The translations under genes and the position numbers were made by a program. A stretch of DNA of 50,198 nucleotides, from assembly GCA_964545425.1 (NCBI GenBank), contig CAZJGQ010000002.1:1-50198 (forward strand), given 5' to 3'. Source of the DNA: an uncultured Chthoniobacter sp. (GTDB lineage Bacteria; Verrucomicrobiota; Verrucomicrobiia; Chthoniobacterales; JACTMZ01). This document shows, one piece after another, positions 29,545 through 48,203 of the stretch; position 1 is the stretch's first letter, and each line of letters opens with the position of its first letter. Under the pieces are notes generated by a model. The model did no database searches and was not told where the DNA came from. It saw only the letters and a list, made by a program, of their open reading frames with translations.

Positions 29545-32500
29545 GCGAATTCAAACTGGCCGAAACGAGGATCAAACCGGGCTTGTCGGTCATCGAGGCC
29601 AGCGCCGGCACCGGCAAAACATACACCGTGACGCACCTTGTCCCGCGATTGCTCCTCGAGGGAACGGTGGAAAAAATCGAACACATCCTGTTGGTGACCT
29701 ACACCAACGATGCGGCGGGGGAACTGGCCGAAAAAGTGCGCGCCGTCCTCGAAAAACTCCACGCTCCCGCGGCCGGCGACGAAGCGGAAACAAATCCCGA
29801 CCTCCACGCCATCCGCGTCGAGCACGGGGAAAGAATCCCCGAGGTGATCGGACGCGCACTCCTCGATATCGACCGGCTCAAGGTGTCAACTATCCACTCC
29901 TTCTGCCTGCGCGTCCTGCAGGACGAAGGCGCGCTCTGCGGCCTGCCGGTCATTCCGGAAATCGTTCCGGACATCGGCGAGTCGGTCGAGGCGGCGGTGC
30001 GCGATTGCTGGGAGACGAAGCTGGTGAGGGACGAGCGTCTTGCCGCCTTCGCGCTGGCGGAAAAGTGGAAGATCGAAGAAGATCTGGACCTCGCTTTGAT
30101 GGCCGCCGGCCATGACGAATATGTTTTTGATCCGGAGCCCCGTAATCTCGGGGAAGTTCTCGCGGCGATCGAGGACCGACGAGCAGCCTTGAGCAAGGAG
30201 TCCCTCGAAGAGCTGGGCAAATTCATCGCGCAAGTCCCCGATGATCTGTGGAATGCAAGCGCCGGGGATAAAGACAGCCGCAACGCGCACGTGGCCAATC
30301 TTCCGGCGTCAGCGTCCATGGCCGATTGGTTGGCGGCAGTGCAGTGGGTCTCATGCTTGCCGCGCAAAAGCAAGGGACTCATCAACGGCGTCAAGACCGC
30401 CGGAAAGGCGTCTATCACCGAAGCCGCCGCGTTGTCCGCGGTGAAAATCGCGAGTGAAGCCGCCGCTTTGGCCGGTGAAATCAAATGGGCCTGGCAAACA
30501 CACTGCGTGCGCGAAGCGACGCAAAACTCGCGCGCGCGGATGGAGGCCGACCGCCGTATCACCTACGACGGATTGATCTCGCGCGTGCGCCATGCGCTGT
30601 GCGACAGCCCGCACCCGAACGAACTCGTGCGCCGCCTGCGGGAGCGCTACAAAGTGGCGCTGGTCGACGAGTCGCAAGACACCGATCCGCGTCAATTCGA
30701 CATCTTCCGGACGATTTTTCTCGGGTCGCCGGGTCATGACGCGACCAAGTCGCATCGCCTTGTCTTGGTCGGCGATCCGAAGCAGGCGATCTACGCTTTC
30801 CGGGGCGCCGACTTGAACACATACCTTCAAGCGAGGAACGGGGCGCATGGCGACCAGGTCTTCACGCTCAGTCGCACCTTCCGCGCTCCCCCCAAGCTGG
30901 TCCGCGCGACCAACGCGTTCTTCACGCGCGATGGATCATTCCTCAATCCCGAGATCCGCATGCAACCGGCCACCGCGGGCCGTCCGGACGACGTGTTCCT
31001 CGATGAAGGCGCCGGTGCGGATAGGCCGCGCATCGAGGTGTGGCTCGTCGAAGAAGCGGACGGAGGTCATTACGAGAACGCCGCGGAACGATCCGACAAT
31101 CTGGCCAAAGGTGTCGCCGTGAAGATAGCGAGCCTTTTGCAAAGCCGCGCCGTCATCGCCGAGACGAGAGACGGGAAGACGAGTATGAAAACAGTGGAGC
31201 CCGGTGACTTCGCCGTGCTGGTCAATTCGAACCACGAGGCCAGGAAGGTCCGTGATGCGCTCGGAGCGGCCGGCGTTCCCTCCGTGACCGCCGCAGGAAT
31301 GGATATCATGGGCAGCGAGGAAGCCGCGGATTTGATCGCCGTGCTGCAGGCCTTGACCGATCCGCGCCGGCGGAAACTCCGCTTTGGCGCACTGGCCACG
31401 CGTCTGCTCGGACGCACGGCGTCGCAGTTGCGCGAAATCGGACGGACCGAAGACGCCATGCTCGGGGTCTTCGACCGCTGGAGCAAAATTCTCGCGAACG
31501 AAGGCGTGGCGGCCGCGGTCGCCGCGATCGACGCGGACGAACGTGTGAGCGAAAGATTGGCCGCGACGGACGGGGGCGAGCGTCGCCTGACCAACCTGAG
31601 GCAACTGACCGACCTGCTGCAGCGCGAGTATGAACTGCACGGCAAACATGCCGCGCGCATGCTGCGCTGGGCCGCGAAGGAGAAAGAGGATGCGACCGAA
31701 CACTCGCGCACCGGGGTGGAGGAGAGACAGCAGCAACTGGAGAGCGATGCGCGCGCGGTGAAAATCGCAACCATGCATTCGGCCAAAGGATTGGAGTTCC
31801 CGCTGGTGTTTTGTCCGTTTCTCTGGAACCGCGGCGCGGGCGCGCGCGGCGAGCGTTTCCGAAAATTCATGCCGGAGCCGGGTGTGGTGAAGCTGGTCAA
31901 TCTGGACAAGTGCGATCCCGCGACCGAGGTCGCGATGGACAAAGCACGGTTCGAAGAGCGGCTTCGCCTCGCTTACGTGGCCATGACACGCGCCCGGGTG
32001 AAGTTGTGGATTCATGCCGGTGCGGCCGGGGAGACGGGACCAAAAACAGCAACAGCTCTCGATTGGCTCCTGCGTCGTGACGGTGAAACATCCCTCGAGG
32101 ACGTGAGCGCGGAAGACAAAGCTGCCGGCCGCGACCAAAGGCAGAAAACGGGATTGGCGAGTTTGATCGGAACCGGTGGTGCTGCCGACGTCCTTGCCGA
32201 TACGGGCGCCCCTTCGTTGCAACATGCCGTTTGGGGTGGCGGCGCGGACCATGCGGGGCCATTGGCCGATGCCGAGCCGGCGCCGGTGATACCCGAAACG
32301 TGGGCTATGACATCGTTTTCCTCGCTCACGAGGGAAAAAAACCCGAAGGGAGACGATGCACCGCCGCAGCTCGGGGGCGACGAGACCGAACCAACCGCGA
32401 CCGCGCCGGCCAACGCCTTCCTCGATGCTCCGGCCGGCGCCTTGGTGGGCACGGCCATCCACGATTGGATGGAGACTTGGGATTTCTCGGCGCCCCGGGC

Positions 32501-33134
32501 GGCTGCGGTGAAAGAACACCTGCGGCATTACGCGCTTGCCGCTCCGAAAGAAGGCGCATCGTGGCCGGAGCGGGTGGTTTCCATGCTGGGCGATTTGCGC
32601 GGATCCAGACTGCCGGGCTTCGATTGCATCATGGCCGAAGCGTGCGCCGAGCCCGGCGCATCCGAATGGCATTTCCAACTTCCGCTCGAGACAAGAATCA
32701 GCCCGAAGAAACTCGCCGACATTTTCGCGCGGCACGGGGAAGAAGATTATGCCGCTCTCCTCGAGACTTTGCCCGAAGCGGAACTGGAAGGTTACCTCCA
32801 CGGATTCATCGACCGCATGGCCGTGGATCCGCAGACACAGAAGTGGGGTGTGATCGACTGGAAGACAAACAAACTGGGGACAAGCGCCGCCGCCCACCGG
32901 AAACAATCTTCGCTGCTGCGTTGCGCGAAACGCAGCCATTACTTCCTGCAGATGCATCTTTATCTGGTGGCCCTGCGCAGGTTTCTCGGACCGGCGGCCG
33001 CACCCGACGACGCGTGGCTCGTTTTTCTGCGCGGCGTGCGCGACGGAACCGCCGACGGTATCCTGCACATCAAGCCCTCGGAGGAGCTGCTCCGCGACCT
33101 CGGGAATCTTTTCCGCATCGTCCGAACATCATGA
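29541..33134 (+). CDS. recB: Exodeoxyribonuclease V beta subunit (UvrD-like helicase plus PD-(D/E)xK nuclease)
   Basis: IEASAGTGKTYT, VALVDESQDTDPRQF, the C-terminal nuclease motif GFIDRM..VIDWKTNK, and YFLQMHLY. Confidence 0.93.
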   Translation: MSEFKLAETRIKPGLSVIEASAGTGKTYTVTHLVPRLLLEGTVEKIEHILLVTYTNDAAGELAEKVRAVLEKLHAPAAGDEAETNPDLHAIRVEHGERIPEVIGRALLDIDRLKVSTIHSFCLRVLQDEGALCGLPVIPEIVPDIGESVEAAVRDCWETKLVRDERLAAFALAEKWKIEEDLDLALMAAGHDEYVFDPEPRNLGEVLAAIEDRRAALSKESLEELGKFIAQVPDDLWNASAGDKDSRNAHVANLPASASMADWLAAVQWVSCLPRKSKGLINGVKTAGKASITEAAALSAVKIASEAAALAGEIKWAWQTHCVREATQNSRARMEADRRITYDGLISRVRHALCDSPHPNELVRRLRERYKVALVDESQDTDPRQFDIFRTIFLGSPGHDATKSHRLVLVGDPKQAIYAFRGADLNTYLQARNGAHGDQVFTLSRTFRAPPKLVRATNAFFTRDGSFLNPEIRMQPATAGRPDDVFLDEGAGADRPRIEVWLVEEADGGHYENAAERSDNLAKGVAVKIASLLQSRAVIAETRDGKTSMKTVEPGDFAVLVNSNHEARKVRDALGAAGVPSVTAAGMDIMGSEEAADLIAVLQALTDPRRRKLRFGALATRLLGRTASQLREIGRTEDAMLGVFDRWSKILANEGVAAAVAAIDADERVSERLAATDGGERRLTNLRQLTDLLQREYELHGKHAARMLRWAAKEKEDATEHSRTGVEERQQQLESDARAVKIATMHSAKGLEFPLVFCPFLWNRGAGARGERFRKFMPEPGVVKLVNLDKCDPATEVAMDKARFEERLRLAYVAMTRARVKLWIHAGAAGETGPKTATALDWLLRRDGETSLEDVSAEDKAAGRDQRQKTGLASLIGTGGAADVLADTGAPSLQHAVWGGGADHAGPLADAEPAPVIPETWAMTSFSSLTREKNPKGDDAPPQLGGDETEPTATAPANAFLDAPAGALVGTAIHDWMETWDFSAPRAAAVKEHLRHYALAAPKEGASWPERVVSMLGDLRGSRLPGFDCIMAEACAEPGASEWHFQLPLETRISPKKLADIFARHGEEDYAALLETLPEAELEGYLHGFIDRMAVDPQTQKWGVIDWKTNKLGTSAAAHRKQSSLLRCAKRSHYFLQMHLYLVALRRFLGPAAAPDDAWLVFLRGVRDGTADGILHIKPSEELLRDLGNLFRIVRTS

Positions 33135-34768
33135 AGCGCCCGGAACTCCAATGGCTCGAAGACAACTGGAGCTTGCCGAAGACGGCTGCTCCGCTCGTCG
33201 AGAAATTGCTCGAAGCCGAGGCGCTAGGGAGCACGGCGTGTCCTCTCGAGGAACGTGTCGACTTCGGCACCGCCGCATCGCGGCCGGATGACAACGCGCC
33301 GACGCCTTTGGTGTTGGTCAAGCAGGACGGTCGCGAGTATCTGCAATCCCGCCGGCTTTTCGCGGCGGAACAAGCCATCGCGGGAAAGCTCGCAACTCTG
33401 GCTGCGGAGAAAGACGAGCCCTGCGACGAAAAGGAACTGGCCTGTGTTTTTCCCGGCGCCGCAGCCGGCGACCGGCAAATGCTTGCGGCAGCATCCGCCC
33501 TGCGCCGGCGTCTGACCGTCATCACCGGAGGACCCGGCACGGGCAAAACTTATACCATCGCGCGCATCCTCGCCCTGCTCGTCGCCCGCGGCATTGATCC
33601 CGCCGATATCGCGCTCTCTGCACCGACGGGCAAAGCCGCCGATCGCATGCGCGCCGCCGTGACCGCATCGCTGGACACGTTACCGAAGAATTTTCCCGTT
33701 GCCGGTGAGAGCTTGGCCAAAATCGCTGCCTCGAGCCGCACGCTGCATTCTCTGCTCGGACATCATCCGGGCAAGGGGACATGCGAATTCAACGGGGACA
33801 ACCGCCTGCCGTGCCGCGTTTTCGTCATCGACGAATGTTCGATGGTCGACGTCCATCTCTGGCGTGCCGTGGTCGAAGCTCTGCCGGACGATGCGAAAGT
33901 CATCCTCGTCGGCGACCCGGACCAATTGGAGAGTGTGGGAACCGGAAACGTTTTCACGGAACTGGTGCGCTTGTCTCTTGCCGCGGACAGCCCGCTTTCC
34001 GGCGCCGCTGTGCAACTGACCGAGGCCCGCCGTTTCAAAGACTGCCCGGACATCGCGGAACTGGCCGCGGCGATCCGCGACAACGATGCCGGTGCGGCAG
34101 CCGCTTTGCTCTCCCGATGCAAGGGAGCGGACGGTTCCACGGGTGTTTCATGGCTCGACTCGGGAAACGGCGAACTCGAGGCGGGAAATTTCCCCGGAAA
34201 GGTCAAGGATGCCTTGGCCGCGGTCGCCGGTGCCGGCACCGCTGAGCAGGCTCTCGACATGTTGCAAGAGGTCTGTGTGCTCACCGCGCAAAGACGTTTC
34301 TTTGTCGGTGCGCGCGCCACAGGAGAGAAAATCGAACGTTGGCTGCGCCGTCGCGGGGAGATCGTGAACCAAGCGGTGATCATCGACGTGAACGATCGCG
34401 GCACCGGACTGCGCAACGGGGCGGTGGGCGTCATCCGGCGCGAACCCGACGGATCCCGGCGTTTTCACAGCCGCTCCGCGGCCGGGGAAACCAGATCCTA
34501 CGCGTTGGCACAGTTGCCCGAGCACAGCCCGGCATGGGCCATCACCATCCACCGCTCGCAAGGCAGCGAATATGACGATGTGCTCGTCATTCTCCCGCGC
34601 GAGGAAAGCCCGCTGGCCACGCGCGAACTTCTCTACACGGCGATCACCCGGGCAAAGAAACGCGTTTACGTCGCCGGCACGATGGATGCGGTGAAGAAAG
34701 CGGTGGAAACACCGGCCAAGCGGATAACGTTGTTGTCATCCGCGCTCGACCGCGCTGTCTCGGCCTGA
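33131..34768 (+). CDS. recD: Exodeoxyribonuclease V alpha subunit
   Basis: ITGGPGTGKTYTIARI, VFVIDECSMVD, ILVGDPDQL, ITIHRSQGSEYDDV. ATGA overlap with recB. Confidence 0.93.
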   Translation: MKRPELQWLEDNWSLPKTAAPLVEKLLEAEALGSTACPLEERVDFGTAASRPDDNAPTPLVLVKQDGREYLQSRRLFAAEQAIAGKLATLAAEKDEPCDEKELACVFPGAAAGDRQMLAAASALRRRLTVITGGPGTGKTYTIARILALLVARGIDPADIALSAPTGKAADRMRAAVTASLDTLPKNFPVAGESLAKIAASSRTLHSLLGHHPGKGTCEFNGDNRLPCRVFVIDECSMVDVHLWRAVVEALPDDAKVILVGDPDQLESVGTGNVFTELVRLSLAADSPLSGAAVQLTEARRFKDCPDIAELAAAIRDNDAGAAAALLSRCKGADGSTGVSWLDSGNGELEAGNFPGKVKDALAAVAGAGTAEQALDMLQEVCVLTAQRRFFVGARATGEKIERWLRRRGEIVNQAVIIDVNDRGTGLRNGAVGVIRREPDGSRRFHSRSAAGETRSYALAQLPEHSPAWAITIHRSQGSEYDDVLVILPREESPLATRELLYTAITRAKKRVYVAGTMDAVKKAVETPAKRITLLSSALDRAVSA

Positions 34769-36308: not shown

Positions 36309-36554
36309 ATGAAGACATCCAATCCTGACCACAATCTGTGGGACAATAATGGCACTTACTGGTGCCGCTTCACCGTCCACTACCCGGACTACACCAAGGG
36401 CCGCGTGGCCAAGTCGTTGCACACGCGGGACTTGGCCGAGGCCCGTCGCCGCCGCGACCACATCATGAAGTCCACCCCGGGAGCCGTCTTCCCGGTGGTG
36501 GTGAACCTGCCCTCGCCCGAGATGAGCCGCATGCACTTTGCCGAGGCGGCATGA
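36309..36554 (+). CDS. Small protein with an integrase Arm/DUF4102-like motif (paralog B)
   Basis: NLWDNNGTYWCRFTVHYPDYTKGRVAKSLHTRDLAEARRRRDHI..HFAEAA*. Confidence 0.5.
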   Translation: MKTSNPDHNLWDNNGTYWCRFTVHYPDYTKGRVAKSLHTRDLAEARRRRDHIMKSTPGAVFPVVVNLPSPEMSRMHFAEAA

Positions 36555-36712
36555 GCCTGTCATGGACCTTTTCGTTACCATTCTTGTGGCTTGGATCCGC
36601 GGCGGCTTGATCGCCGCCAACGGTGTGCTCTTCGGGAAATACCTGGAGATCTACCACGGTTGTCCCCAACCGGTGTGGGCTTGGGGATCTGCCGCCATCG
36701 GAGCTTGGGCTT

Positions 36713-37075
36713 TCAGAGCCGAGTGGAGGCGCTTGCGCGCCCGGCGTCGCGAACGGGTCTCGCATAAAAGCGGTCCGGGTGCGAGCCGAGATAAACAAGA
36801 GTAACGGGACAGAGGGCGCCTTGGCGGTCTTTGTATCGGTAAAGAGCCCAGTCGTCGCCCGTGTCCTCGACTTTGCAGATCTCGACCATGTCGGGATGGG
36901 TGCGCTGGAGTCCGAATTCCACCACGACAGGTTTCCCCGCCGTCGGGAACCCGAACTCCTCGAGGATAAAGTCGATCAATTCGGTCGAACCGTCGACGAA
37001 CGGCTCGCGCTCGATGCCGTGCGCGGCATCGTCGAACATCCAGACCCCGTGGTCTTTGTAGAGCGTCAGGCGCAT
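36713..37075 (-). CDS. Small conserved hypothetical protein (recalled as DUF6717-like, unverified)
   Basis: Start placed at Met 37075: MRLTLYKDHGVWMFDDAAHGIEREPFVDGSTELIDFIL..GALCPVTLVYLGSHPDRFYA. The upstream part of the tracked ORF is Pro/Thr/Ser-rich and non-genic looking. Confidence 0.55.
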   Translation of the reverse strand: MRLTLYKDHGVWMFDDAAHGIEREPFVDGSTELIDFILEEFGFPTAGKPVVVEFGLQRTHPDMVEICKVEDTGDDWALYRYKDRQGALCPVTLVYLGSHPDRFYARPVRDAGRASASTRL

Positions 37076-37116
37076 GGAGGATGGGGAGGGCATGGGTGAG
37101 GAGGTGGCGGGTGGCT

Positions 37117-37376: not shown

Positions 37377-37808
37377 TCACTCAACCTCGATCAGCGGCAG
37401 GACGACCTTTTCGAAGTCGGCAAGTTTGACGATACGGATGCCGCGCCACGGATCGAGCACAAGAAGGTCCTCATCGCCGGTGACAATGGCGCGAGCACCG
37501 CTGGCCAGGGCCAGTTCAAGGAATTTATCGTCGTCGGGATCGCGGCAGTCACGCACCTCTTCACGCAGAGCTGCTGCCGGAAACAGCACTGCGGCTTTGC
37601 GCCAGGTCCGCAGGAGGCCCTCGCGAGTCCGCCGGGATACGTATCGATCCAACTTGGGTCGCATGAGCACGTCGGCCAATTCGTCATAGGTGGCCGCGGA
37701 GAAGATGAGCGGGATATTGCGCGCAAGCACCGCGCGGACACACAAGTCAGCCCGGCTTCCCGAGAGCAATGTAGCGCTGACGAGAATGTTGGTATCGAAG
37801 ATGACCAC
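37377..37808 (-). CDS. PIN-domain toxin
   Basis: MVIFDTNILVSATL..DPDDDKFLELALASGARAIVTGDEDLL. Confidence 0.85.
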   Translation of the reverse strand: MVIFDTNILVSATLLSGSRADLCVRAVLARNIPLIFSAATYDELADVLMRPKLDRYVSRRTREGLLRTWRKAAVLFPAAALREEVRDCRDPDDDKFLELALASGARAIVTGDEDLLVLDPWRGIRIVKLADFEKVVLPLIEVE

Positions 37809-37811
37809 CGG

Positions 37812-38069
37812 TCAGCCGGGATTCTCGGCGGCAAGCAGGCGATCCAGCGTTGCGGCAGTCAGACCGTTCTTACGCGCCTCGGCTTGGAGCTTGTCCATGG
37901 ACCGCGTGACTTTGCGATTCTGCGCTGAGACCAGATTGCGGTAGAGAGCCATAGGCAAGAAGACTCCGAGGTCGCGCTGATGGCGCCTGATGACGACGGG
38001 CTCTTGGATGCCGTAATCGAGGAATTGACCGAAATTTTGCCGGGCTTCAGAGGCGGTCATGGCTTTCAT
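37812..38069 (-). CDS. Phd/YefM-family antitoxin
   Basis: The internal Met at 38069 gives MKAMTASEARQNFGQFLDYGIQEPVVIRRHQRDLGVFLPMALYRNL. It ends 3 nt before the PIN start. Confidence 0.75.
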   Translation of the reverse strand: MKAMTASEARQNFGQFLDYGIQEPVVIRRHQRDLGVFLPMALYRNLVSAQNRKVTRSMDKLQAEARKNGLTAATLDRLLAAENPG

Positions 38070-38137
38070 ACGAATGACCTTACGACAAATTGCACAAAAT
38101 GTCAAAAATTCGACCGAAGCCCGGTTGCCGATTCCGA

Positions 38138-39235
38138 TCACGCGGCGAAGCCGACCAAGCGCGGAGTTTCTTCATGAACCCCGGCACCGGCGAAGACCTC
38201 GGCCAGAGAGTAGTCGTCAGCGGGCTCCAGACTTTTGCCCAGATGGGCGGCCAGGCGGTCGGCTTGCGCGGCGGAGAGGCGCCCGAAGTTGCGGTGGGCG
38301 ACGAGGCGACCCGGACGCAACAAGGCGGGATCCAAGCGCGACGAAGGACAGTTGATCGTGCAGATGACATGCGTGCGCAGGAAATCGGCGAACATGCCGT
38401 CGGTAATGTTGAGGATGGCGCTGACCTGCGAGCGGTTGTCGTTGGCGCGGGTCATCAGTGCGGCTTCGCAATCTTCGAGGATGACGACAAAGCGTTTCTT
38501 GCGTCCGTGACGCTCATTCTCGTCGACCCAGAAGTCGACGAGTTCGGTTTGGACGAGGCAGCTGAGGGAACTCGGCGGTAGGTAGTAGAAACGATGGGTA
38601 TCTTTCAGCTTGGCCATGAGCAGACGTAGATAGGTCGTTTTGCCCGTGCCCGGAGGGCCCTCGATGAGTGAGAGGCCGGACTTTTTCCCGACGATGGTGT
38701 CGATGAAGTTGTTGTGCCACGCGGGGAAGCCCTCGCCGTAGAACAAATCGAGATTCCCTTCGGCCGGCAGTCCGTCGGTCGCGATCTCGACGCGTTCGGC
38801 GCGAAGCATGCCGTAGGAGCTGTTGATGATGTGGAAGGTCGGGACAACTTCGCCGGGTGCGGAGAGATACTGCGCGGCGAAAGAACGCAGTCTGTCCTCG
38901 GCCGCCGTCAGAGTCGGTGCGTAGACGATCAGGCTGCGGCGGCAGATATGGACGAACTCATGCGTGCCGAAGCGGAAGACGGCATTGGTCCACTTCTCCC
39001 AGTCGCGCGTTTTGTCGATGCTCTGCTCGCTGCGGAGAAGATGGGCGTTCAATTCACGCACGGCGCGGCCGGTCTGCCAGTCACCGTCGCGCGAGACGGT
39101 GTGGAACGGCTCGGTGCCGTAGGCGCAGATGACGTCGTGCGGGGGCACCTTGGTCGAGCAACCGTCCTGCCCGTAGGGCGATGGATCGCCGAGATTGATG
39201 TGACGGTGGATTTCGGGAGCGTTCATAAAGTTCAA
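38138..39235 (-). CDS. Classical AAA+ ATPase with an unknown ~150-aa N-terminal domain
   Basis: Walker A is IEGPPGTGKTTYL, Walker B is FVVILEDCE, and the SRH region is SRLDPALLRPGRL. The start is either TTG 39235 (TTGA overlap) or ATG 39226. Confidence 0.85.
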   Translation of the reverse strand: MNFMNAPEIHRHINLGDPSPYGQDGCSTKVPPHDVICAYGTEPFHTVSRDGDWQTGRAVRELNAHLLRSEQSIDKTRDWEKWTNAVFRFGTHEFVHICRRSLIVYAPTLTAAEDRLRSFAAQYLSAPGEVVPTFHIINSSYGMLRAERVEIATDGLPAEGNLDLFYGEGFPAWHNNFIDTIVGKKSGLSLIEGPPGTGKTTYLRLLMAKLKDTHRFYYLPPSSLSCLVQTELVDFWVDENERHGRKKRFVVILEDCEAALMTRANDNRSQVSAILNITDGMFADFLRTHVICTINCPSSRLDPALLRPGRLVAHRNFGRLSAAQADRLAAHLGKSLEPADDYSLAEVFAGAGVHEETPRLVGFAA

Positions 39236-40956
39236 GCGGCAGCACGCAGGCCGTAGAGGTCGGACATGAAGGAGGAAAGGATGCGGGTGACTTCAGCGCA
39301 GAGATCGGAAGGGTCGAGCCCGCCACGTCCGCAGGGGAACCATTCGGTAATGCCTTCGGTCTGCGGACCGAGTCCGAGTCCGGTGGCGCGGACCGAACTG
39401 CGATGCCAGCGTGCCACGATGCGATCGAAGCCCTCGCGCTCATCGCGAGGGAAATCCCCGTCGGCCGTCACGATGACCAGATGTTCGCGGCGCGGGCTGC
39501 GCTGGATGACTTCGTCCGCTTTCTCCAGGGCGGGGACGATGCGTGTGCCTCCGTCGGCTTGCAGGATGGTCTCCAGTCGGCGGGCCGCGGCCCGACTCGA
39601 ACCGTCGCCGTCGAACTCGAGCAGAACCGTGGCGCGACGGTTGTAACAGAGCACAGCCAGGGGAAGGCCGACGCGGCGGCAGACTTCGTTGAGGATAACC
39701 GCCGCCGCGAAGGAAGCTTTGGCGCGCGCGCCTTCCATCGAGCTGGAACGATCGGCGATAAGCACAAGAGCTGGGGCGATGCGATGGGGTAACTGGCGGC
39801 GGCGCCACATGCGATCGTGGTTGCGACCCGTGGCGGCAAACTCCATGGCCACGCGCAAATCGGGTTCGTGTCCATGGGCGTAACCGGTCGACCACTTGAG
39901 GCGTCCGTGCGAGCGCTGCAGATCGAGGAGAGCATCGCTCAGGTGGTTGATGACCACCGCATGTTTGCTGCGGGCTTCACGGTAAGCTTCACCCGATCCC
40001 GGACTTCCGTCGCTACCGCCGACCTGACCTGCAGCACGGCGGCGGGCGCTGCGGCGTTGCTCGATGCGACGCTGCATGGCGCGGAAGTCACGCACGGCCT
40101 CGCGCTCGTTGCTGTTCGATGGCTCGGGTCCGCGATCCCACATGAGGCGGTGCATGAATTGATGGAACCGCAGCGTGCTGCGTGTTCCGAGGTCCATGGA
40201 AACCAAGCGCAGGAAAACGGGACGAATCTTGTCGTGCAAGATGCGCCAGGCGCGGTATTGGGCGAGGCGCACCGACATTTCCACCGCGTCGGGACGGATC
40301 GGCCCGTCATGCGCGGCGAAGCACGGAGGCAAGGGACTGGCCGCGTATTCGGCGGCGATCTCCGCCCCGTGTCCCTCGAGCAGATCGAAACGGGGAAAAG
40401 AATCGAAGTAGGCTTCGATGTCGGGCGCGCTTTGGGCGAGTGCTTCGCAGGCCGCAGGATGCAATGGCGCGGGAGTGGCCAGTCCATGACGCATGAGGAG
40501 CAGACCCATGCAGAAATCGGCGGCGGGATTTTTCCCCATCACATCGGGATGGGAGCGATGCAACTCACACACGAGGGTGTTCTGCGTGGTGGCCAGCCAC
40601 GGGGCGCAACCGGGTAACCAGTCGGACAACCATGTCTCGATGCGGCCGTCCTCGATCGCGTTGATCAGGCTGAACTCGACGGGATTGTCGTGGATCTGGT
40701 CGGGGGCAATGCGGTGCAGACGGGTCAGGGTGGAATGCGCACACTCGTGCAACATGATGGCCGAGAGGAATTCCGGACTGCGTCCGAGCAAGTCGCGCTC
40801 GTCCACATTGATCGTCCCGTCGCGCATGCTGATCGACCAACCCGAGCCGGGGCGTCCAATGCGCACGGTGACATCGGCGCGCAACGAGGCCAGACGGGCC
40901 AGGCTTTCCAGCCCGGCCCGCACTTCTTCGCGAAGGTGCGCTTCGCGATTTTTCAT
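39232..40956 (-). CDS. HExxH putative metallopeptidase domain plus vWA (MIDAS) domain protein (DUF2201-like architecture)
   Basis: AIMLHECAHS and NAIEDGRIE at the N-terminus. VLIADRSSSMEG is a DxSxS MIDAS motif; also ADGGTRI and LVIVTADGDF. The ATG at 40956 overlaps the upstream stop (ATGA). Confidence 0.8.
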   Translation of the reverse strand: MKNREAHLREEVRAGLESLARLASLRADVTVRIGRPGSGWSISMRDGTINVDERDLLGRSPEFLSAIMLHECAHSTLTRLHRIAPDQIHDNPVEFSLINAIEDGRIETWLSDWLPGCAPWLATTQNTLVCELHRSHPDVMGKNPAADFCMGLLLMRHGLATPAPLHPAACEALAQSAPDIEAYFDSFPRFDLLEGHGAEIAAEYAASPLPPCFAAHDGPIRPDAVEMSVRLAQYRAWRILHDKIRPVFLRLVSMDLGTRSTLRFHQFMHRLMWDRGPEPSNSNEREAVRDFRAMQRRIEQRRSARRRAAGQVGGSDGSPGSGEAYREARSKHAVVINHLSDALLDLQRSHGRLKWSTGYAHGHEPDLRVAMEFAATGRNHDRMWRRRQLPHRIAPALVLIADRSSSMEGARAKASFAAAVILNEVCRRVGLPLAVLCYNRRATVLLEFDGDGSSRAAARRLETILQADGGTRIVPALEKADEVIQRSPRREHLVIVTADGDFPRDEREGFDRIVARWHRSSVRATGLGLGPQTEGITEWFPCGRGGLDPSDLCAEVTRILSSFMSDLYGLRAAA

Positions 40957-42338
40957 GCTGCGTCCTTCCATTGGCGGATGAGACCGCAGGCTTCGGCCAT
41001 GCGGATAACCGCGCGTTCGTCGGAGGCATCGTCGAGTTGTCCAAGGTAGACATCGCCGATCGCGGTGCGCAGCGCGGTGTCGGGATCGGTGCCGGCGCGC
41101 AGGGCGCGATCAAGCATGGAGACGAGGAAGAGAAGACTGCGGCGGTTGAAGCAGTAACGCTCCGAGCGATCGCGTCCGAGGCTGGCTTCGCCTCCGCCTT
41201 GGCCCGCGGCCTTGGCCACGTGGTTGTGGAACTTGGCCAACGCGGCGAGGAAGGTGTCGGCATCGGGCCATTGCGCGATCGAAGCGTGCACGGGCTGAGC
41301 GTTGTCCGCCTGCCAGCGGCGACCGGCCAAGGTGACCACGGGCTGTGTGCCGTGAACCAGACGGCGCAAAAGATCGAGATCTTGTTGCAGCCCGGGGGCT
41401 TTGGCGCAGTGCACGTGGAAACGTGAACGCAAGGCGGGGCTCAAGGCATTGCGACCCGTGTAGGCCGCAGGATTGTAAGTCGCGATAACGCGGAAGTTGT
41501 CGTGGATCGTCACGCCGCCGTGTCCGCCGAAGACCGTGCCGTCGTTCTCGGAGAGAATGAGCGTGGGCGGGTGCTCGAGGACGGGATTGAGGCGCTCGAC
41601 GCACTGCGGTTCGGCAAGATTGATTTCATCGAGGAGGACCCATTCGCCGTGGCGCATGGCTTGGGGCAACACGCTCTCGACAAAACGGAATCCGCCTTCG
41701 GGTGCGGGTGCGAAGCGTCCGACCAATTCCCCCGCATCGGTCGCGCCGTTGAGATTGAGGCGGCGCACGCCTTGGCGCAGGAGATGCGCGAGGTAGAGAA
41801 CGGCGGTGGTTTTGGCTGCGGCGGTCTCGCCTTCCAGCGCGACAGGACGCCCGTGCACCACGCCGACGGCGATGGCGCGCATGGTTTCGGCCAAGGGTTG
41901 GTCGATGACTAAGTGGGCGAATTGCGCGGCGGGGGGGACAAGCGATGACGCGTGTTTGTTTTTCGGCAGGACGAGTCCGGCCAAGGTCACGCTGTCATCG
42001 TCCTCGACGAAGAGCGGCTCGGGATCGGGTTCGCGCACCGGGGGCGCGACAACGGTGACGGCTGCGGTTTCGGACGGACGCGAGGCTTTCAGCTCGCGCA
42101 AGGTCATGGCCTTGCCGGTCATCGCGCTGATCTGGCGCAATTCGTTTTTGGCCACGCCTTCGCCGACCAAGGCCAGATTGGCCACGCGGGTCGAGGAGAC
42201 GATGCGGTAACCGCGCTCGCGCAACCATGCGGAGGCCTCGGCTTTTTCCTCCTCCGCCATATGGGTCAGCACGACCGCCTCGCGGGGGCGGGCGGACGCA
42301 GGCGGGGCGTCGGTGGCGAAGAGATCGGGTGCTTTCAC
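40953..42338 (-). CDS. MoxR/AAA_5-like ATPase with a deviant Walker A and an N-terminal BRCT-like module
   Basis: ALEGETAAAKTTAVLYLA has the P-loop glycines replaced by Ala. Walker B is WVLLDEINLA; also FRVIATYNP and SPALRSRF. The N-terminus is VVLTHMAEEEKAEASAWLRERGYRIVSS..LALVGEG. Confidence 0.75.
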   Translation of the reverse strand: MKAPDLFATDAPPASARPREAVVLTHMAEEEKAEASAWLRERGYRIVSSTRVANLALVGEGVAKNELRQISAMTGKAMTLRELKASRPSETAAVTVVAPPVREPDPEPLFVEDDDSVTLAGLVLPKNKHASSLVPPAAQFAHLVIDQPLAETMRAIAVGVVHGRPVALEGETAAAKTTAVLYLAHLLRQGVRRLNLNGATDAGELVGRFAPAPEGGFRFVESVLPQAMRHGEWVLLDEINLAEPQCVERLNPVLEHPPTLILSENDGTVFGGHGGVTIHDNFRVIATYNPAAYTGRNALSPALRSRFHVHCAKAPGLQQDLDLLRRLVHGTQPVVTLAGRRWQADNAQPVHASIAQWPDADTFLAALAKFHNHVAKAAGQGGGEASLGRDRSERYCFNRRSLLFLVSMLDRALRAGTDPDTALRTAIGDVYLGQLDDASDERAVIRMAEACGLIRQWKDAA

Positions 42339-42340
42339 GT

Positions 42341-42730
42341 TCAGGCGGCTTTTTTGACGGCGGTTTCGGCTTCGAGGTTGTGCACCGCCGAGAGGATGCG
42401 CTCCTGCAGGTCGGGCAGGTTGGAGAGGATGTGATGGACCACCTGATCGTCGAGTTCCAGGGAGTCCAGACCCTTGAAGGCCGCGAGCAGATCGAGGGCC
42501 TCGCCGGGCAGGGCGTCCTTGAGGAACTCCCAGCCGATGGCCGTGGCCGGCTGCATGGCCGTGAAGGAGATCCAGCCCTTGAGGGCGCCGTCGGGACCAC
42601 GGACACGGTAGGTCGAGTCCGAGCAGTCCACCTGGCCGATGGTGTAGGTGGTGGAGTGGTCGTAACCGTTCTCCTGATGGTCCTTGCGGAGGCGGACTTT
42701 CAGGCCGATGGGATAAGGATGGCTAAGCAT
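42341..42730 (-). CDS. hypothetical small protein, first gene of the MoxR-vWA cassette
   Basis: The ORF ends 2 nt before the GTG start of the MoxR-like gene. The start is ambiguous (42730, 42778 or 42799). No motif recognised. Confidence 0.45.
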   Translation of the reverse strand: MLSHPYPIGLKVRLRKDHQENGYDHSTTYTIGQVDCSDSTYRVRGPDGALKGWISFTAMQPATAIGWEFLKDALPGEALDLLAAFKGLDSLELDDQVVHHILSNLPDLQERILSAVHNLEAETAVKKAA

Positions 42731-42852
42731 AAGAGGTCTTTGATTGAGACGGACAGCATAGCCGTTTCTTAGACCCATTCCGAGCCAACAGGGTGTCATA
42801 AACGCGCTTTTCCGCGCGCCTCGGCGCCGTCGCTAAACCACACGCCTCGCTA

Positions 42853-43321
42853 TCAGGCGGTTACGGGACGCAACCTTCGCGGACGCGTGGGCATGGTCCC
42901 GCTGCGCCGCCCGCGCGACCGTTCTCGGGCAGTCGCCGTGTCGTGCTCCTCGAGCGGTTTGAAACGGGCGATATCCCAACTGATTTCTTTGGAGGATCCG
43001 GGTAAACGACCGGGAATTTCCATGAGGGCAAGGCCCGGGCCGATCGCTCCCGTGATCTGGTGGCGCGTGCGGAAGCGGATTTCACGGATCGTGTAAATCT
43101 GTCCGTCGAGGGGGACTTCGTTGACGAGTTGACTCGTTCGCTAGCGCTCGTCTCGCCCTTGCGGGTCCCGCGTGCGCGGGATCTGCCCCGAGCGCACATG
43201 CGCTCCGGTGCTCCCGCCTAGCAGGTGGGTCGGAAGTTACGTGAGGATCTCCAAAATGAAGCACGAGGTCGGTCTTGCCATCGATGCAGAGAACGCGCTG
43301 ACCTGTCGAATAGCTGCTCAT
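42853..43321 (-). pseudogene. Possible frameshifted small gene
   Basis: The N-terminal part MSSYSTGQRVLCIDGKTDLVLHFGD is in one frame. A plausible C-terminal part, VNEVPLDGQIYTIREIRF..GLALMEIPG..WDIARFKPLEE, is in another frame that ends at TGA 42853 and has no start codon. Confidence 0.3.
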
Positions 43322-43325
43322 GGAC

Positions 43326-43919
43326 TCAAAAGAACCAGTTCATCCAAGAATCCTGGAACGCGACCGGAAGACCCTGCTGCCGACAGACACGGATGGTATG
43401 TCCCGTGCCGCCGGCTTCGGGATCGGAGAGGTCAACGTAGAACAAACCGCACACGGGCGGACCGAACTCCTCGGAGTAGCCGATCACCTTCATGGTATCG
43501 CGGATGAGATAGGAGGCTTTGGCCGCCAGCTTGGGTGAACCGGTGCGCTTGTAGACCACATTGGCGTTGCGTGGAGTCGCAGCCACCGTGGCTTCGGTGA
43601 TGGCCGCTTCCTTAACCTTGGATAGAGATTCGGGTGAAGAATAGAGTGCATCGGCATACCGCACCTTCATGCGATGCGAGGCGTAAGGTGCGATGACCTG
43701 CAAACGAGAGGCGTCGACCTCGGCCACCCCTGCGGCAAATGCCTCATCACTGCCCTCGGCATTGCCGGACCGGAATCGCAAGCAGACGAATTCCCGAGAC
43801 AAACGGTTGGCAAACCCACGCGCCAAGGAAGCGTCCCGTTCCGAGATCGCCCGACGTCCCTCGAGAAGAACGACAGGCGAATCGCCGACGGCGAGCTTTC
43901 GGAATTGTTCAAGAGTCAT
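43326..43919 (-). CDS. SLOG/DprA-like Rossmann-fold protein
   Basis: VVLLEGRRAIS..LRFRSGNAEGSDEAFAAGV..LQVIAPY..GGTGHTIRVCRQQGLPV parallels the DprA/SLOG layout. Confidence 0.6.
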   Translation of the reverse strand: MTLEQFRKLAVGDSPVVLLEGRRAISERDASLARGFANRLSREFVCLRFRSGNAEGSDEAFAAGVAEVDASRLQVIAPYASHRMKVRYADALYSSPESLSKVKEAAITEATVAATPRNANVVYKRTGSPKLAAKASYLIRDTMKVIGYSEEFGPPVCGLFYVDLSDPEAGGTGHTIRVCRQQGLPVAFQDSWMNWFF

Positions 43920-47672: not shown

Positions 47673-48032
47673 CTAGTGCGTCATAGCTCCTGCCCTGTAT
47701 TCATGGGGCTTGCAGCAGGGAGCAGACATCCAAGAGCCAGAGACGGTGCCCGGCTGGCAACGAAGATCCGGTGAGACATCGGGCATGGCCTGACCGCGCA
47801 TGCGGGGGATATTGCTGGCGATTTTCGGAGTCGCCTGCATGAGGAAGTCCCTCAGAGCGCGGGCGATTGCGACGTCGTCGGTTCCCAACGAGACGCGAAC
47901 CCGTTTCTTGGTGTAGTCGTCTTCGTGGACCGTGTAGTGGCACCACCAGGTGCCGTTGTTGTTCCAGATGTTGTGGTTGGGATTGGGATTTTTATTTTGC
48001 ACGCTCCCACTGCAACACAGGGGGTAAGACAT
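47673..48032 (-). CDS. Small protein with an integrase Arm/DUF4102-like motif (paralog C)
   Basis: NIWNNNGTWWCHYTVHEDDYTKKRVRVSLGTDDVAIARALRD. The C-terminal part is unlike paralogs A and B. Confidence 0.4.
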   Translation of the reverse strand: MSYPLCCSGSVQNKNPNPNHNIWNNNGTWWCHYTVHEDDYTKKRVRVSLGTDDVAIARALRDFLMQATPKIASNIPRMRGQAMPDVSPDLRCQPGTVSGSWMSAPCCKPHEYRAGAMTH

Positions 48033-48129: not shown

Positions 48130-48203
48130 GCGCCCGTAGCTCAACCGGATAGAGTGTCGGCCTCCGAAGCCGAAGGTTGTGGGTTCGACTCCCGCCGGGC
48201 GCA
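48130..48203 (+). tRNA. tRNA-Arg (anticodon CCG)
   Basis: 74 nt folded by hand. Acceptor GCGCCCG/CGGGCGC, D arm GCTC..GAGT, anticodon stem TCGGC/GCCGA with loop CTCCGAA, T arm GTGGG-TTCGACT-CCCGC. No encoded CCA. Confidence 0.9.

What the first reader, a model, noticed from the sequence alone, without database searches (positions are those of the whole stretch)
38138..42730. Four-gene minus-strand cassette: small protein, BRCT-like MoxR/AAA_5 ATPase with deviant P-loop, HExxH-vWA protein and a classical AAA+ ATPase
Seen in sequence: the genes are tightly coupled, with a 2-nt gap at 42338/42341, an ATGA overlap at 40953-40956 and a stop/start overlap at 39232-39235. The MoxR-like protein has GETAAAKT in place of GxxGxGKT but an intact Walker B (LLDEIN). 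The next protein combines HECAH (HExxH) with a MIDAS vWA (DRSSS). The last has canonical GPPGTGKT, ILED and an SRH region. Established knowledge: MoxR-vWA pairs are chaperone-like modules (CbbQ/O and NorQ/D types), and vWA-MoxR ternary conflict systems have been predicted computationally. Inference: in this island, with a SLOG-like gene upstream and a Phd-PIN pair immediately downstream on the same strand, the cassette is a plausible NTP-dependent defence or abortive-infection module. The metallopeptidase and/or second AAA+ would be the effector. As far as I know this composition has not been tested experimentally.
Basis: partly seen in the sequence, partly recalled or inferred. Interest (0 to 1): 0.8.

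Follow-up and report, generated by a model that had tools for sequence, protein, structure and literature searches.

The report
Unnamed MoxR-vWA-protease cassette with second ATPase
Four tightly linked genes in a Verrucomicrobia-like genome form a conserved, uncharacterised two-ATPase machine with a metal-binding adaptor and a predicted protease; it sits among anti-phage and toxin-antitoxin genes, so it is a credible but untested candidate for a new bacterial defence or threat-sensing system.

Summary
The cassette recurs as a unit down to 47% identity, always in different surroundings.

The components are:
- A: a small protein of a rare family (about 95 clusters among 1.84 billion representatives).
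- B: a BRCT-like domain fused to a midasin-type AAA_5 ATPase. Its P-loop has Ala or Ser before the lysine in 119 of 120 homologues (no P-loop match in the other).
- C: a zincin-like HExxH domain fused to a midasin/NorD-type MIDAS vWA domain.
- D: a soluble Bcs1/YjoB-like classical AAA+ ATPase.

Across 100 loci in 48 groups, B and C are always adjacent. A-B-C forms the core triad. D is an accessory gene that joined the triad in two separate clades and three gene arrangements. Other clades carry an ECF-like sigma gene instead, or a 700-860 aa protein in place of A.

No conserved metabolic client gene was found. Neighbours include Druantia-, restriction-, PbeA- and toxin-antitoxin-type genes. PADLOC does not recognise A, B or C.

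The closest described kin are the computationally predicted MoxR-vWA ternary conflict systems, especially the FtsH type, but the feature that defines that type is not met. I rate this a new variant of a known kind. The function is inferred, not shown.

The parts
42341..42730 (-). Gene A: a 129-aa small protein (the ORF could extend to 42799). It has a beta-rich N-terminal half and a helical C-terminal half, and is the signature subunit of the triad.
   Evidence: Homologues of 119-144 aa sit directly upstream of B in all cassette copies. An exhaustive phmmer search found 99 clusters, about 95 of them real. There is no significant Pfam or PDB hit, only weak hints of an SH3-like barrel. One copy or two tandem paralogues are present in groups 0-35.
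40953..42338 (-). Gene B: a 461-aa BRCT-like domain fused to an AAA_5 (MoxR/midasin-clade) ATPase. GTG start, 2 nt after the stop of A.
   Evidence: Pfam AAA_5 covers residues 166-307, E=2e-20. The best PDB sequence matches are the midasin AAA domains, followed by CbbQ, NorQ and CobS.
42084..42287 (-). N-terminal BRCT-like domain of B (residues 18-85).
   Evidence: Sub-threshold only. PF00533 BRCT scores E=0.0016 over profile positions 8-77 of 78 in the L016 homologue, and 3 of 20 homologues hit it. A profile of the region has the DNA-ligase BRCT (1l7b) as its top PDB match, E=0.11.
41808..41831 (-). Deviant Walker A of B: GETAAAKT.
   Evidence: Translation. It is invariant in the 7 cassette copies. 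In 119 homologues the residue before the Lys is always Ala or Ser: GETAASKT 44, GETAAAKT 27, GDTAVAKT 18.
41619..41636 (-). Intact Walker B of B: LLDEIN.
   Evidence: Translation. D237, E238, N289, R296 and R306 are invariant in 44 homologues.
39232..40956 (-). Gene C: a 574-aa protein with a zincin-like HExxH domain, a helical linker and a MIDAS vWA domain. ATGA overlap with B; an alternative start lies at 40971.
   Evidence: Pfam VWA_2, VWA_CoxE and VWA cover residues 365-536. AlphaFold2 model: mean pLDDT 75.7. Only 24 clusters of close homologues were found, plus full-length relatives at 27-29% identity in loci without D.
40552..40956 (-). Predicted zincin-like metallopeptidase domain of C, with HECAH at 40735-40749 and the E102-D103 pair at 40648-40653.
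   Evidence: H70, E71, H74, T78, N99, E102, D103, R105, W109, P115, G116 and W120 are invariant down to 27% identity. The model topology is helix, three strands, the HExxH helix, then the helix carrying E-D. Sequence hits to peptidases are only non-significant: SprT-like E=0.03; projannalysin and 3cmn at E about 1.
39247..39774 (-). vWA domain of C with a complete MIDAS motif: DRSSS at 39739-39753, plus the GGT and ADG elements.
   Evidence: D402, S404, S406, G470, T471 and D499 are invariant. The top Foldseek hits are the human MDN1 and Rea1 MIDAS domains (target-normalised TM-score up to 0.73) and the NorD vWA domain.
38138..39235 (-). Gene D: a 365-aa soluble Bcs1/YjoB-like classical AAA+ ATPase. 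TTGA overlap with C.
   Evidence: AlphaFold2 model: mean pLDDT 85.7. Foldseek matches full-length Bcs1 (E=1e-11) and B. subtilis YjoB, and phage and giant-virus Bcs1-like ATPases at E=1e-22 to 1e-16. phmmer hits Afg2, Cdc48, p97 and Bcs1. Walker A is GPPGTGKT (38636-38659); Walker B is LED (38471-38479), in the same E-D order as Bcs1; RPGR lies at residues 307-310.
38726..39148 (-). N-terminal domain of D (residues 30-170), corresponding to the Bcs1-type middle domain.
   Evidence: The model has pLDDT of about 88-98 per 10-residue block here. Foldseek alignments to Bcs1 span 330-389 columns, which includes this domain. The sequence shows no N-terminal hydrophobic segment.

Best explanation
The cassette is a member of a previously undescribed family of MoxR-vWA conflict or threat-response systems.

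Its conserved core is a triad:
- A, a small protein with an SH3-like N-terminal half and a helical C-terminal half.
- B, a BRCT-like domain fused to a midasin-type AAA_5 ATPase. Its atypical P-loop is conserved (Ala or Ser before the Lys), and its Walker B, sensor-1 and arginine residues are all intact.
- C, an adaptor that joins a zincin-like HExxH domain to a midasin/NorD-type MIDAS vWA domain.

By analogy with Rea1-MIDAS/UBL and with NorQ-NorD, the proposed mechanism is as follows (all steps inferred):
1. The MIDAS site of C holds an acidic residue of a ligand. The ligand is either A or an invader or stress-derived protein presented by A.
2. The B ring pulls on C in an ATP-dependent way.
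3. This sets a threshold for switching on the peptidase domain of C.

In this clade the output is handed to D, a soluble Bcs1/YjoB-like ring ATPase that remodels or extracts folded proteins. D may engage the Ala-Ala C-terminal tails that C, and here also B, carry only where D is present. The result would be growth arrest or interference with an invader.

Shown: gene linkage, domain identities, conserved catalytic residues, variable defence-rich context, and two recruitments of D.

Inferred: every biochemical step and the biological role.
For: - The four genes are conserved as a unit with overlapping junctions down to 47% identity of C, in unrelated flanks.
- B and C are adjacent in all 100 loci (48 groups). 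A, or two A paralogues, lies upstream in groups 0-35.
- D is linked in three arrangements: overlapping C; A-B-C-190aa-D; and D-x-YbjN-A-B-C. These fall in two separate clades of the B tree. D sequences in the two clades are as far apart (39-41%) as unrelated stand-alone D genes.
- C ends in -AA in 7 of 8 D-linked groups, against about 1 of 28 groups without D.
- The catalytic motifs of all three enzymes are invariant.
- Both the sequence of B and the MIDAS fold of C have midasin as their closest match.
- D is Bcs1/YjoB-like.
- Neighbours include a DruE-like helicase, PbeA, a type IV restriction enzyme, methyltransferases, a PD-T4-6-type kinase, PsyrT, Fic, and PIN/Phd, DUF433/DUF5615 and HipA toxin-antitoxin genes.
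- Kaur et al. 2020 (PMC7159879) predicted MoxR-vWA ternary conflict systems, including one with a classical AAA+ and a P-loop variant GXXXTAKS.
- A 2026 preprint (PMC13622651) places MoxR and vWA proteins in a threat-sensing signalling pathway (Esr) that is required for defensive Esx secretion.
Against: - There is no experimental phenotype.
- PADLOC v2 has no model matching A, B or C, and matches D only at P-loop level.
- No recognisable toxic effector domain (nuclease, pore-former, NADase) is present.
- The peptidase assignment rests on motifs and predicted topology. No significant match to any peptidase family was found, and the N-terminal 90 residues of the C model have low confidence.
- Enrichment of defence genes among neighbours was not compared with a background rate.
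- One locus (L016) is flanked on one side by ordinary metabolic genes.
- The -AA correlation rests on perhaps two or three independent evolutionary events.
Confidence: 0.5

Rival explanations
1. The triad is a threat- or stress-sensing signal transducer, not a killing device. It would control gene expression or protein turnover through regulated proteolysis, for example release of a sigma-type regulator. In this clade D would simply be a different downstream remodeler or turnover factor.
For: An ECF-like Sigma70_r4_2 gene lies directly next to the triad (median 28 nt away, often in two copies) in 10 groups, and never together with D. A Ser/Thr kinase, PTP-type phosphatases and ADP-ribosylglycohydrolase-PTP fusions recur nearby. 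BRCT is classically a phosphopeptide-binding fold (established knowledge). The Esr pathway couples MoxR-vWA to a kinase/phosphatase pair and an FHA protein to switch on defences (PMC13622651).
Against: The window clade has no sigma, kinase or phosphatase gene conserved with the cassette. The PTP gene is present in L004 and L008 but absent from the window. No DNA-binding or anti-sigma domain was detected in A-D.
Confidence: 0.22
2. It is a cargo module of mobile elements that serves the element rather than the host, for example in addiction, exclusion of competitors, or anti-defence.
For: Stand-alone D-like genes lie next to TrwC relaxase and ArdC genes and inside toxin-antitoxin arrays. Integrase-N-terminal-like ORFs and a tRNA-Arg gene flank the region in the window, and similar small ORFs follow the cassette in L001, L004 and L007. 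A transposase lies in L011. Bcs1-like ATPases are common in phages (PMC7824862).
Against: The triad was not found in 72,556 plasmids. In 2.9 million viral contigs the only hit was a 28%-identity partial AAA_5 match. No intact integrase and no att repeat are present in the window.
Confidence: 0.1
3. It is a housekeeping assembly chaperone of the CbbQ/O, NorQ/D, CoxD/E or cobaltochelatase type, which matures a specific metalloenzyme.
For: The AAA_5-plus-vWA pairing is the hallmark of those chaperones. CbbQ, NorQ and CobS are sequence hits for B, and NorD is a structural hit for C.
Against: No client enzyme gene recurs in 48 groups. The family is rare and patchy. The flanks are defence and toxin-antitoxin genes. 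The added BRCT-like, zincin-like and Bcs1-like parts are unknown in those chaperones. NCBIfam scores for GvpN and CobS are far below cut-off.
Confidence: 0.06
4. A-B-C and D are two independent modules that merely lie side by side.
For: Each occurs without the other: the triad without D in about 40 groups, and D-like genes alone in L021-L024.
Against: There is a 4-nt stop/start overlap between C and D in five groups spanning 46-88% D identity. There is a second, independent linkage in another B clade. The C-terminal -AA of C co-varies with the presence of D.
Confidence: 0.04

Closest known systems
FtsH-type MoxR-vWA ternary conflict system (Kaur, Burroughs, Iyer and Aravind 2020, eLife, PMC7159879; computational prediction)
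   Same: It has a MoxR-clade ATPase, a vWA protein and a further classical-clade AAA+ ATPase in one operon. [quoted passage not shown] Its MoxR carries a P-loop variant with Ala before the Lys (GXXXTAKS there; GxT[AS]x[AS]K[TS] here). It occurs in Planctomycetes/Verrucomicrobia-type bacteria.
   Different: There the third component has two FtsH-type AAA domains, the first inactive. Here D is a single AAA domain behind a Bcs1-type middle domain. That paper does not mention a BRCT domain. The zincin fused to the vWA domain, the small A protein and the triad-only forms seen here do not figure in its description of the FtsH type. NEFF1, radical-SAM and Ubl components are absent here.
Midasin (Rea1/MDN1) AAA ring plus MIDAS domain acting on the UBL domains of Rsa4 and Ytm1
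   Same: The AAA_5 domain of B scores best against the midasin AAA domains. The vWA domain of C superposes best on the MDN1/Rea1 MIDAS domain. The logic of a MIDAS site holding an acidic residue of a small beta-rich ligand while an AAA_5 ring pulls could apply here.
   Different: Midasin is one eukaryotic polypeptide of about 4,900 aa with six AAA domains, and it works in ribosome maturation. Here there is one AAA_5 domain per chain, the MIDAS domain is a separate gene fused to a zincin-like domain, and the context is bacterial islands.
NorQ/NorD, CbbQ/CbbO, CoxD/CoxE and CobS/CobT chaperone pairs
   Same: They have adjacent AAA_5 and vWA genes, and NorD and CbbQ/NorQ are detectable homologues.
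   Different: Those pairs sit beside their client enzyme and have canonical P-loops. They have no peptidase motif, no BRCT domain and no second AAA+.
Bcs1 (mitochondrial) and B. subtilis YjoB
   Same: D shares the two-domain fold (middle domain plus classical AAA), the E-D order in Walker B, and the second region of homology with RPGR.
   Different: D has no transmembrane anchor. It belongs to a family of 758 or more proteins (E below 1e-5) whose sampled members (four loci, three distinct contexts) lie in bacterial islands and mobile elements. Its oligomeric state and substrate are unknown.
Esr threat-sensing pathway of Actinomycetales (bioRxiv 2026, PMC13622651)
   Same: It uses a MoxR-vWA pair as a transducer between a variable sensor and a variable output. 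Kinase and phosphatase genes also lie near some triad loci.
   Different: Esr uses beta-propeller filament sensors, FHA proteins and Esx secretion. None of these is present here.

Membership tests
MoxR-vWA ternary conflict systems (Kaur et al. 2020), generic | Adjacent genes for a MoxR-clade AAA+ ATPase and a vWA protein with MIDAS aspartates. | tested here: met
   AAA_5 E=2e-20 and VWA hits. B and C are adjacent in 100 of 100 loci. D402 and D499 are invariant.
MoxR-vWA ternary conflict systems (Kaur et al. 2020), generic | A third signature component: VMAP, iSTAND, a double FtsH-type AAA, or a beta-propeller fused to the vWA domain. | tested here: not met
   A, C and D match no VMAP, iSTAND, bpMoxR or propeller family in Pfam at E up to 0.1. 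D is a single Bcs1-like AAA domain. The model of C has no propeller.
FtsH-type ternary system | [quoted passage not shown] | tested here: not met
   The N-terminal domain of D (residues 30-170) is a mixed beta/alpha domain that aligns with the Bcs1 middle domain. NCBIfam FtsH E-values are 0.03-0.08.
FtsH-type / beta-propeller-type ternary systems | MoxR P-loop variant GXXXTAKS. | tested here: inconclusive
   The variant here is similar but not identical, with Ala or Ser before the Lys: GETAAAKT here, and GETAASKT, GDTAVAKT, GETAVAKS and others in 119 homologues.
Housekeeping AAA_5-vWA chaperones (CbbQO, NorQD, CoxDE, CobST, GvpN) | A conserved neighbouring client enzyme or operon. | tested here: not met
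   Clustering of neighbours over 48 groups found only ECF-like sigma, ADP-ribosylglycohydrolase, YbjN, HD and D-type AAA genes as recurrent neighbours.
Housekeeping AAA_5-vWA chaperones | Membership of the curated equivalog models. | tested here: not met
   GvpN scores 23.6 bits against a cut-off of 266.8. CobS scores 20.1 against 558.6.
Known anti-phage systems (PADLOC-DB v2.0.0) | Match to a system protein model. | tested here: not met
   No hits for A, B or C. D has only P-loop-level hits, the best being mad8 at E=1.5e-6 over 62 residues.
Zincin (HExxH) metallopeptidases | A conserved HExxH motif on a helix, plus a downstream third ligand. | tested here: met
   H70, E71, H74, E102 and D103 are invariant down to 27% identity. 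In the model they lie on consecutive helices after a three-stranded sheet.
Zincin (HExxH) metallopeptidases | Significant sequence or structure match to a peptidase family; peptidase activity. | tested here: inconclusive
   The best hits are SprT-like at E=0.03, and projannalysin and 3cmn at E about 1. The domain could not be searched alone by fold because the vWA domain dominated the Foldseek list. Activity cannot be tested with these tools.
BRCT domain | Match to PF00533 above the gathering score. | tested here: inconclusive
   The best score is 19.0 bits against a cut-off of 21.3, with full-length profile coverage, in a homologue. The window protein itself has no hit. The DNA-ligase BRCT is the top PDB match of the region's profile, E=0.11.
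Bcs1/YjoB-like AAA ATPases | A Bcs1-type middle domain followed by a classical AAA domain, with E-D in Walker B. | tested here: met
   Foldseek matches full-length Bcs1 at E=1e-11 and YjoB at E=1e-9. phmmer hits Bcs1 at E=4e-6. L253, E254 and D255 are invariant.
Bcs1/YjoB-like AAA ATPases | N-terminal membrane anchor; heptameric ring. | not testable with these tools
   The sequence shows no hydrophobic N-terminal segment, which suggests a soluble protein. The oligomeric state is unknown.

The most novel reading that the evidence does not exclude
The triad A-B-C is a bacterial split-midasin immune sensor. Ligand capture at the MIDAS site and pulling by the BRCT-AAA_5 ring unlock a fused zincin protease. 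A Bcs1-like ring ATPase, recruited twice independently, then reads the Ala-Ala C-terminal tails of the vWA and MoxR subunits to execute or reset the response. This would be a new protease-coupled, two-ATPase class of defence system, and the first assigned function for the large family of soluble bacterial Bcs1-like ATPases.
Probability: 0.15. Interest if true: 0.85.

Novelty: new variant of a known kind. Interest (0 to 1): 0.62.

Why it matters
MoxR-vWA conflict systems were predicted in 2020. Apart from one 2026 preprint on a signalling pathway, they have hardly been tested.

This cassette is compact (4.6 kb, four genes). All its catalytic motifs are intact and can be mutated. It also has natural variants: the triad alone, the triad with a sigma gene, and the triad with a Bcs1-like ATPase. 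That makes it a practical entry point for asking how a MoxR-vWA pair converts recognition into an output.

It would also give a first functional handle on three things:
- a large family of soluble bacterial Bcs1-like AAA+ ATPases that lie in mobile and defence islands;
- the conserved Gly-to-Ala/Ser P-loop variant;
- a possible C-terminal Ala-Ala recognition code.

Tried and rejected
- Large repeat proteins (P0335, P0338, P0360) among the hits to A turned out to match only a short Ig-like hairpin motif (..NPDG..SGW..F.V). I discarded them as not homologous.
- A single-linkage neighbour cluster that seemed to place sigma-70 genes next to the window cassette was a chimera. It merged full-length RpoD-like genes from other groups with 72-119 aa integrase-N-terminal-like ORFs from the window clade. 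The window clade therefore has no sigma neighbour.
- I looked for a tRNA-derived att repeat that would delimit an island and found none.
- A tblastn search of C against PLSDB plasmids found nothing. D gave only two distant chromid hits.
- A viral-contig scan with the B profile gave only a 28%-identity partial AAA_5 hit.
- Profile searches of A and of the N-terminal domain of C against PDB sequences gave nothing significant.
- The 700-860 aa protein that replaces A in groups 37-47 shows no A-like region and no Pfam domain.
- The 190-aa gene between C and D in group 0 looked ClpP-like by eye but has no Pfam hit. I make no claim about it.
- The held supplement of Kaur et al. 2020 had no searchable list of system members.

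Full report
**1. Observation**

The region holds four co-directional minus-strand ORFs:
- A: 42341-42799
- B: 40953-42338
- C: 39232-40971
- D: 38138-39235

- A/B: TGA, then AC, then GTG.
- B/C: ATGA overlap. An alternative ATG 15 nt upstream gives a 19-nt overlap.
- C/D: TTGA overlap.

Pfam assigns AAA_5 to B (E=2e-20), three vWA families to C, and the classical AAA family PF00004 to D (E=7e-9). A has no hit.

A most likely starts at M24 (42730). Its homologues are 119-144 aa long and align from that point.

**2. The cassette is a conserved unit**

A search with C found only 24 clusters, at 47-95% identity.

Contigs carrying distant members have the same order, small protein-AAA_5-vWA-AAA, with overlapping junctions. 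This holds for L001 (51%), L002/3 (47%), L004-6 (67%), L010 and L011 (56%). Their flanking genes are entirely different.

The closest genome hit is a MAG labelled Chthoniobacter flavus, phylum Verrucomicrobiota.

In alignments of seven copies the following are all invariant or conservatively substituted:
- GETAAAKT and LLDEINLAE in B
- HECAH and the ED in C
- the MIDAS elements DxSxS, GGT and ADG in C
- GPxGTGKT, LED and RPGR in D

**3. What the parts are**

*B.* Its AAA_5 domain scores best against the six AAA domains of midasin, then against CbbQ, NorQ and CobS.

Among 120 homologues a P-loop was located in 119, and in all of these the residue before the P-loop lysine is Ala or Ser, never Gly. 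The commonest forms are GETAASKT (44), GETAAAKT (27) and GDTAVAKT (18). Walker B D237/E238, the sensor-1 residue N289, and R296 and R306 are invariant. The variant P-loop is therefore a selected family trait in an otherwise intact ATPase.

The N-terminal 70-90 residues look like a BRCT domain, but only below threshold. PF00533 scores 19.0 bits against a cut-off of 21.3, over the whole profile, in one homologue. The DNA-ligase BRCT domain is the top PDB match of a profile built from this region, E=0.11.

*C.* The AlphaFold2 model has mean pLDDT 75.7. Confidence is lower over residues 1-90 and in the linker at 305-393.

The model shows a helix, three short strands, a helix carrying H70-E71-x-x-H74, and a helix carrying E102-D103. 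A helical region and a vWA domain follow.

Foldseek puts the vWA domain closest to the MDN1/Rea1 MIDAS domain and to NorD.

Across relatives at 27-33% identity, H70, E71, H74, T78, N99, E102, D103, R105, W109, P115, G116 and W120 are invariant. This pattern fits a gluzincin-type active site. However, no peptidase family matches significantly, so the peptidase is a prediction.

*D.* The model is confident, with mean pLDDT 85.7. Over its full length it matches the heptameric Bcs1 translocase (E=1e-11) and B. subtilis YjoB. It also matches Bcs1-like ATPases of phages and giant viruses at E=1e-22 to 1e-16.

D has no hydrophobic N-terminal segment and is presumably soluble.

*A.* An exhaustive phmmer search of 1.84 billion representative proteins found 99 clusters. 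About 95 are genuine small proteins of 115-270 aa. The few giant hits share only an Ig-like hairpin motif.

Nothing in Pfam or PDB matches significantly. Weak hits to PsaE, SH3_15 and BPL_C hint at an SH3-like barrel in the N-terminal half.

**4. The wider family changes the picture**

B has many homologues at 38-50% identity. In their contigs the genes are small protein (one copy or two tandem paralogues)-AAA_5-vWA, with no fourth gene.

BLAST shows that these small proteins are homologous to A (E=1e-16 to 1e-28). The vWA proteins are homologous to C over their full length and keep the HExxH and ED motifs.

A metagenome scan with a B profile added 80 loci. Together with the earlier loci, I analysed 100 loci that fall into 48 groups at 85% identity of B. 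The findings are:
- B and C are always adjacent.
- A is present in groups 0-35.
- Groups 37-47 have instead a 700-860 aa protein with no Pfam domain directly upstream on the same strand.
- D is linked in three arrangements:
  - overlapping C, in the window clade (groups 9, 13, 21, 27, 33);
  - A-B-C-190aa-D-HEAT/LRV protein, in group 0;
  - D-x-YbjN-A-B-C, in groups 1 and 20.

In a neighbour-joining tree of B, the D-linked groups form two separate clades. The D proteins of group 0 are as distant from the window's D (39-41%) as unrelated stand-alone D-like genes are (41-43%). This points to two independent recruitments.

D-like genes also occur alone, inside toxin-antitoxin arrays and next to TrwC and ArdC genes.

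In ten groups of the clade with two A paralogues, an ECF-like Sigma70_r4_2 gene abuts the triad. It is never found together with D.

**5. A co-variation**

C ends in Ala-Ala in 7 of the 8 D-linked groups. It also does so in group 6, which belongs to a D-linked clade but whose flanks are too short to show whether D is present. Among about 28 groups without D, only one has this ending.

B ends in WK[DE]AA only in the window clade. The D family itself ends in an invariant [IV]GF followed by AA.

Classical AAA+ unfoldases are known to read non-polar C-terminal tails such as the ssrA tag LAA (established knowledge). I therefore propose, as an inference, that D engages these tails.

The number of independent evolutionary events behind this correlation is small.

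**6. Context**

No client enzyme recurs next to the triad. The neighbours found are as follows.

Of 100 neighbouring proteins from 12 loci (about ten distinct contexts) scanned with PADLOC models, the hits include:
- a DruE-like helicase
- PbeA (three proteins)
- a type IV restriction enzyme
- type II methyltransferases
- a PD-T4-6-type kinase
- mad6, PsyrT, and DpdF/DpdJ

Precomputed Pfam annotations and my own scans add:
- Fic, Smr, Vsr and an Mrr-helicase
- a MORC-like HATPase, NYN and WYL
- HipA, PIN/Phd and DUF433/DUF5615

I did not compare this with a background rate, so the defence-island context is qualitative.

In the window itself:
- The Phd-PIN pair lies between D and a DUF6717-like gene that follows D directly in L010. 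The pair is therefore an insertion.
- The upstream DprA/SLOG-like gene is conserved only in close relatives.

**7. Comparison with what is known**

Kaur et al. 2020 (PMC7159879) predicted four MoxR-vWA ternary conflict systems. Their FtsH type combines MoxR, vWA and a classical AAA+. Its simple subtype has a vWA domain behind a large helical domain, and its MoxR often has the P-loop variant GXXXTAKS. This is the closest described kin.

The defining third component of that type is a double FtsH-type AAA with an inactive first domain. That feature is not met here. Pfam models for VMAP, iSTAND, bpMoxR and propellers also do not match.

No paper in the searchable library combines BRCT, MoxR and vWA. 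PADLOC v2 does not recognise A, B or C.

A 2026 preprint (PMC13622651) places MoxR and vWA proteins in a threat-sensing signalling pathway (Esr) that is required for defensive Esx secretion. This supports the general class of function. It also keeps the signalling rival alive.

**8. Verdict**

The best explanation (confidence 0.5) is an NTP-dependent conflict system. It is built on a midasin-like MoxR/MIDAS pair with a fused predicted protease and a small partner. In this clade a Bcs1-like ATPase serves as output or processing unit.

The rivals are:
- a pure threat-signalling role (0.22)
- a cargo function serving a mobile element (0.10)
- a housekeeping chaperone (0.06)
- two unrelated neighbouring modules (0.04)

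All biochemical steps are inferred. I classify it as a new variant of a known kind. It is a good experimental candidate rather than a categorically new system.

Noticed in passing
window 42928-43321 (insertion at about 43132-43273): A 114-aa gene directly upstream of A is intact in L008 and L010. In the window it is split by an extra 125-140 bp that contains short GC-rich palindromes, so it is probably a pseudogene here.
   Followed up: partly
window 37377-38141 and 36713-37084: The Phd-PIN pair lies between D and a DUF6717-like gene. In L010 that gene follows D immediately (82% identical), so the toxin-antitoxin pair is a lineage-specific insertion and not part of the cassette.
   Followed up: yes
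window 36309-36554 (+) and 47673-48032 (-); tRNA-Arg(CCG) 48130-48203: Two homologous, inverted small ORFs resembling an integrase N-terminal (DUF6538-like) domain bracket the roughly 11-kb region that holds the cassette. One lies 100 bp from a tRNA gene. ORFs of 72-81 aa of the same kind lie 1.5-3 kb downstream of D in L001, L004 and L007. No att-like repeat was found.
   Followed up: partly
window 36538-36804 (+); L004 12717-13076, L007 about 7636-7893, L021 8129-8341: A small hydrophobic protein, apparently with two membrane-spanning segments, recurs right beside D or stand-alone D-like genes in several loci, in varying orientation. L001 has two unrelated small hydrophobic ORFs at the same position. 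It could be a fifth, membrane-associated partner.
   Followed up: partly
C-termini of B (40953), C (39232) and D (38138); related loci: In the window clade A, B, C and D all end in Ala-Ala: KKAA, WKDAA, LRAAA and VGFAA. Across 48 groups the -AA ending of C tracks the presence of D.
   Followed up: yes
window 43326-43919 (-): The 197-aa protein is DprA/SLOG-like (PHROG 768, E=3e-7; motif SGNAEGSD). It is conserved upstream of the cassette only in the close relatives L008 and L010.
   Followed up: partly
L036-L039, L043, L045, L049-51, L079, L080, L084, L086, L092, L099, L100, L102: In one clade of B-C pairs, A is replaced by a 700-860 aa protein with no Pfam domain, encoded directly upstream on the same strand.
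   Followed up: partly
L013-15, L019, L040-42, L048, L053, L059, L070, L075, L083, L085, L087-88, L091, L098: ECF-like Sigma70_r4_2 genes of about 230 aa, often in two copies, abut the triad in ten groups. A Ser/Thr kinase gene follows in L013-15. ADP-ribosylglycohydrolase genes, fused to a PTP domain in L013-15, recur in eight groups. YbjN-family genes recur near both triad and D-like genes.
   Followed up: partly
L090 4982-5554, L093 12674-13246 and 14500-16347: In the second D-linked clade, a 190-aa protein with no Pfam hit separates C from D. A 615-aa HEAT/LRV-repeat protein follows D.
   Followed up: no
L011 9774-12621: A second, different MoxR-vWA module (bpMoxR plus DUF2201_N/DUF2201) lies 1 kb downstream of the cassette in L011, next to a WYL regulator gene.
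   Followed up: no
window 26224-34768 (+): Three very large overlapping plus-strand ORFs lie upstream of the island. The last carries a GGPGTGKT motif. They look like a RecBCD-type helicase-nuclease operon, but I did not verify this.
   Followed up: no
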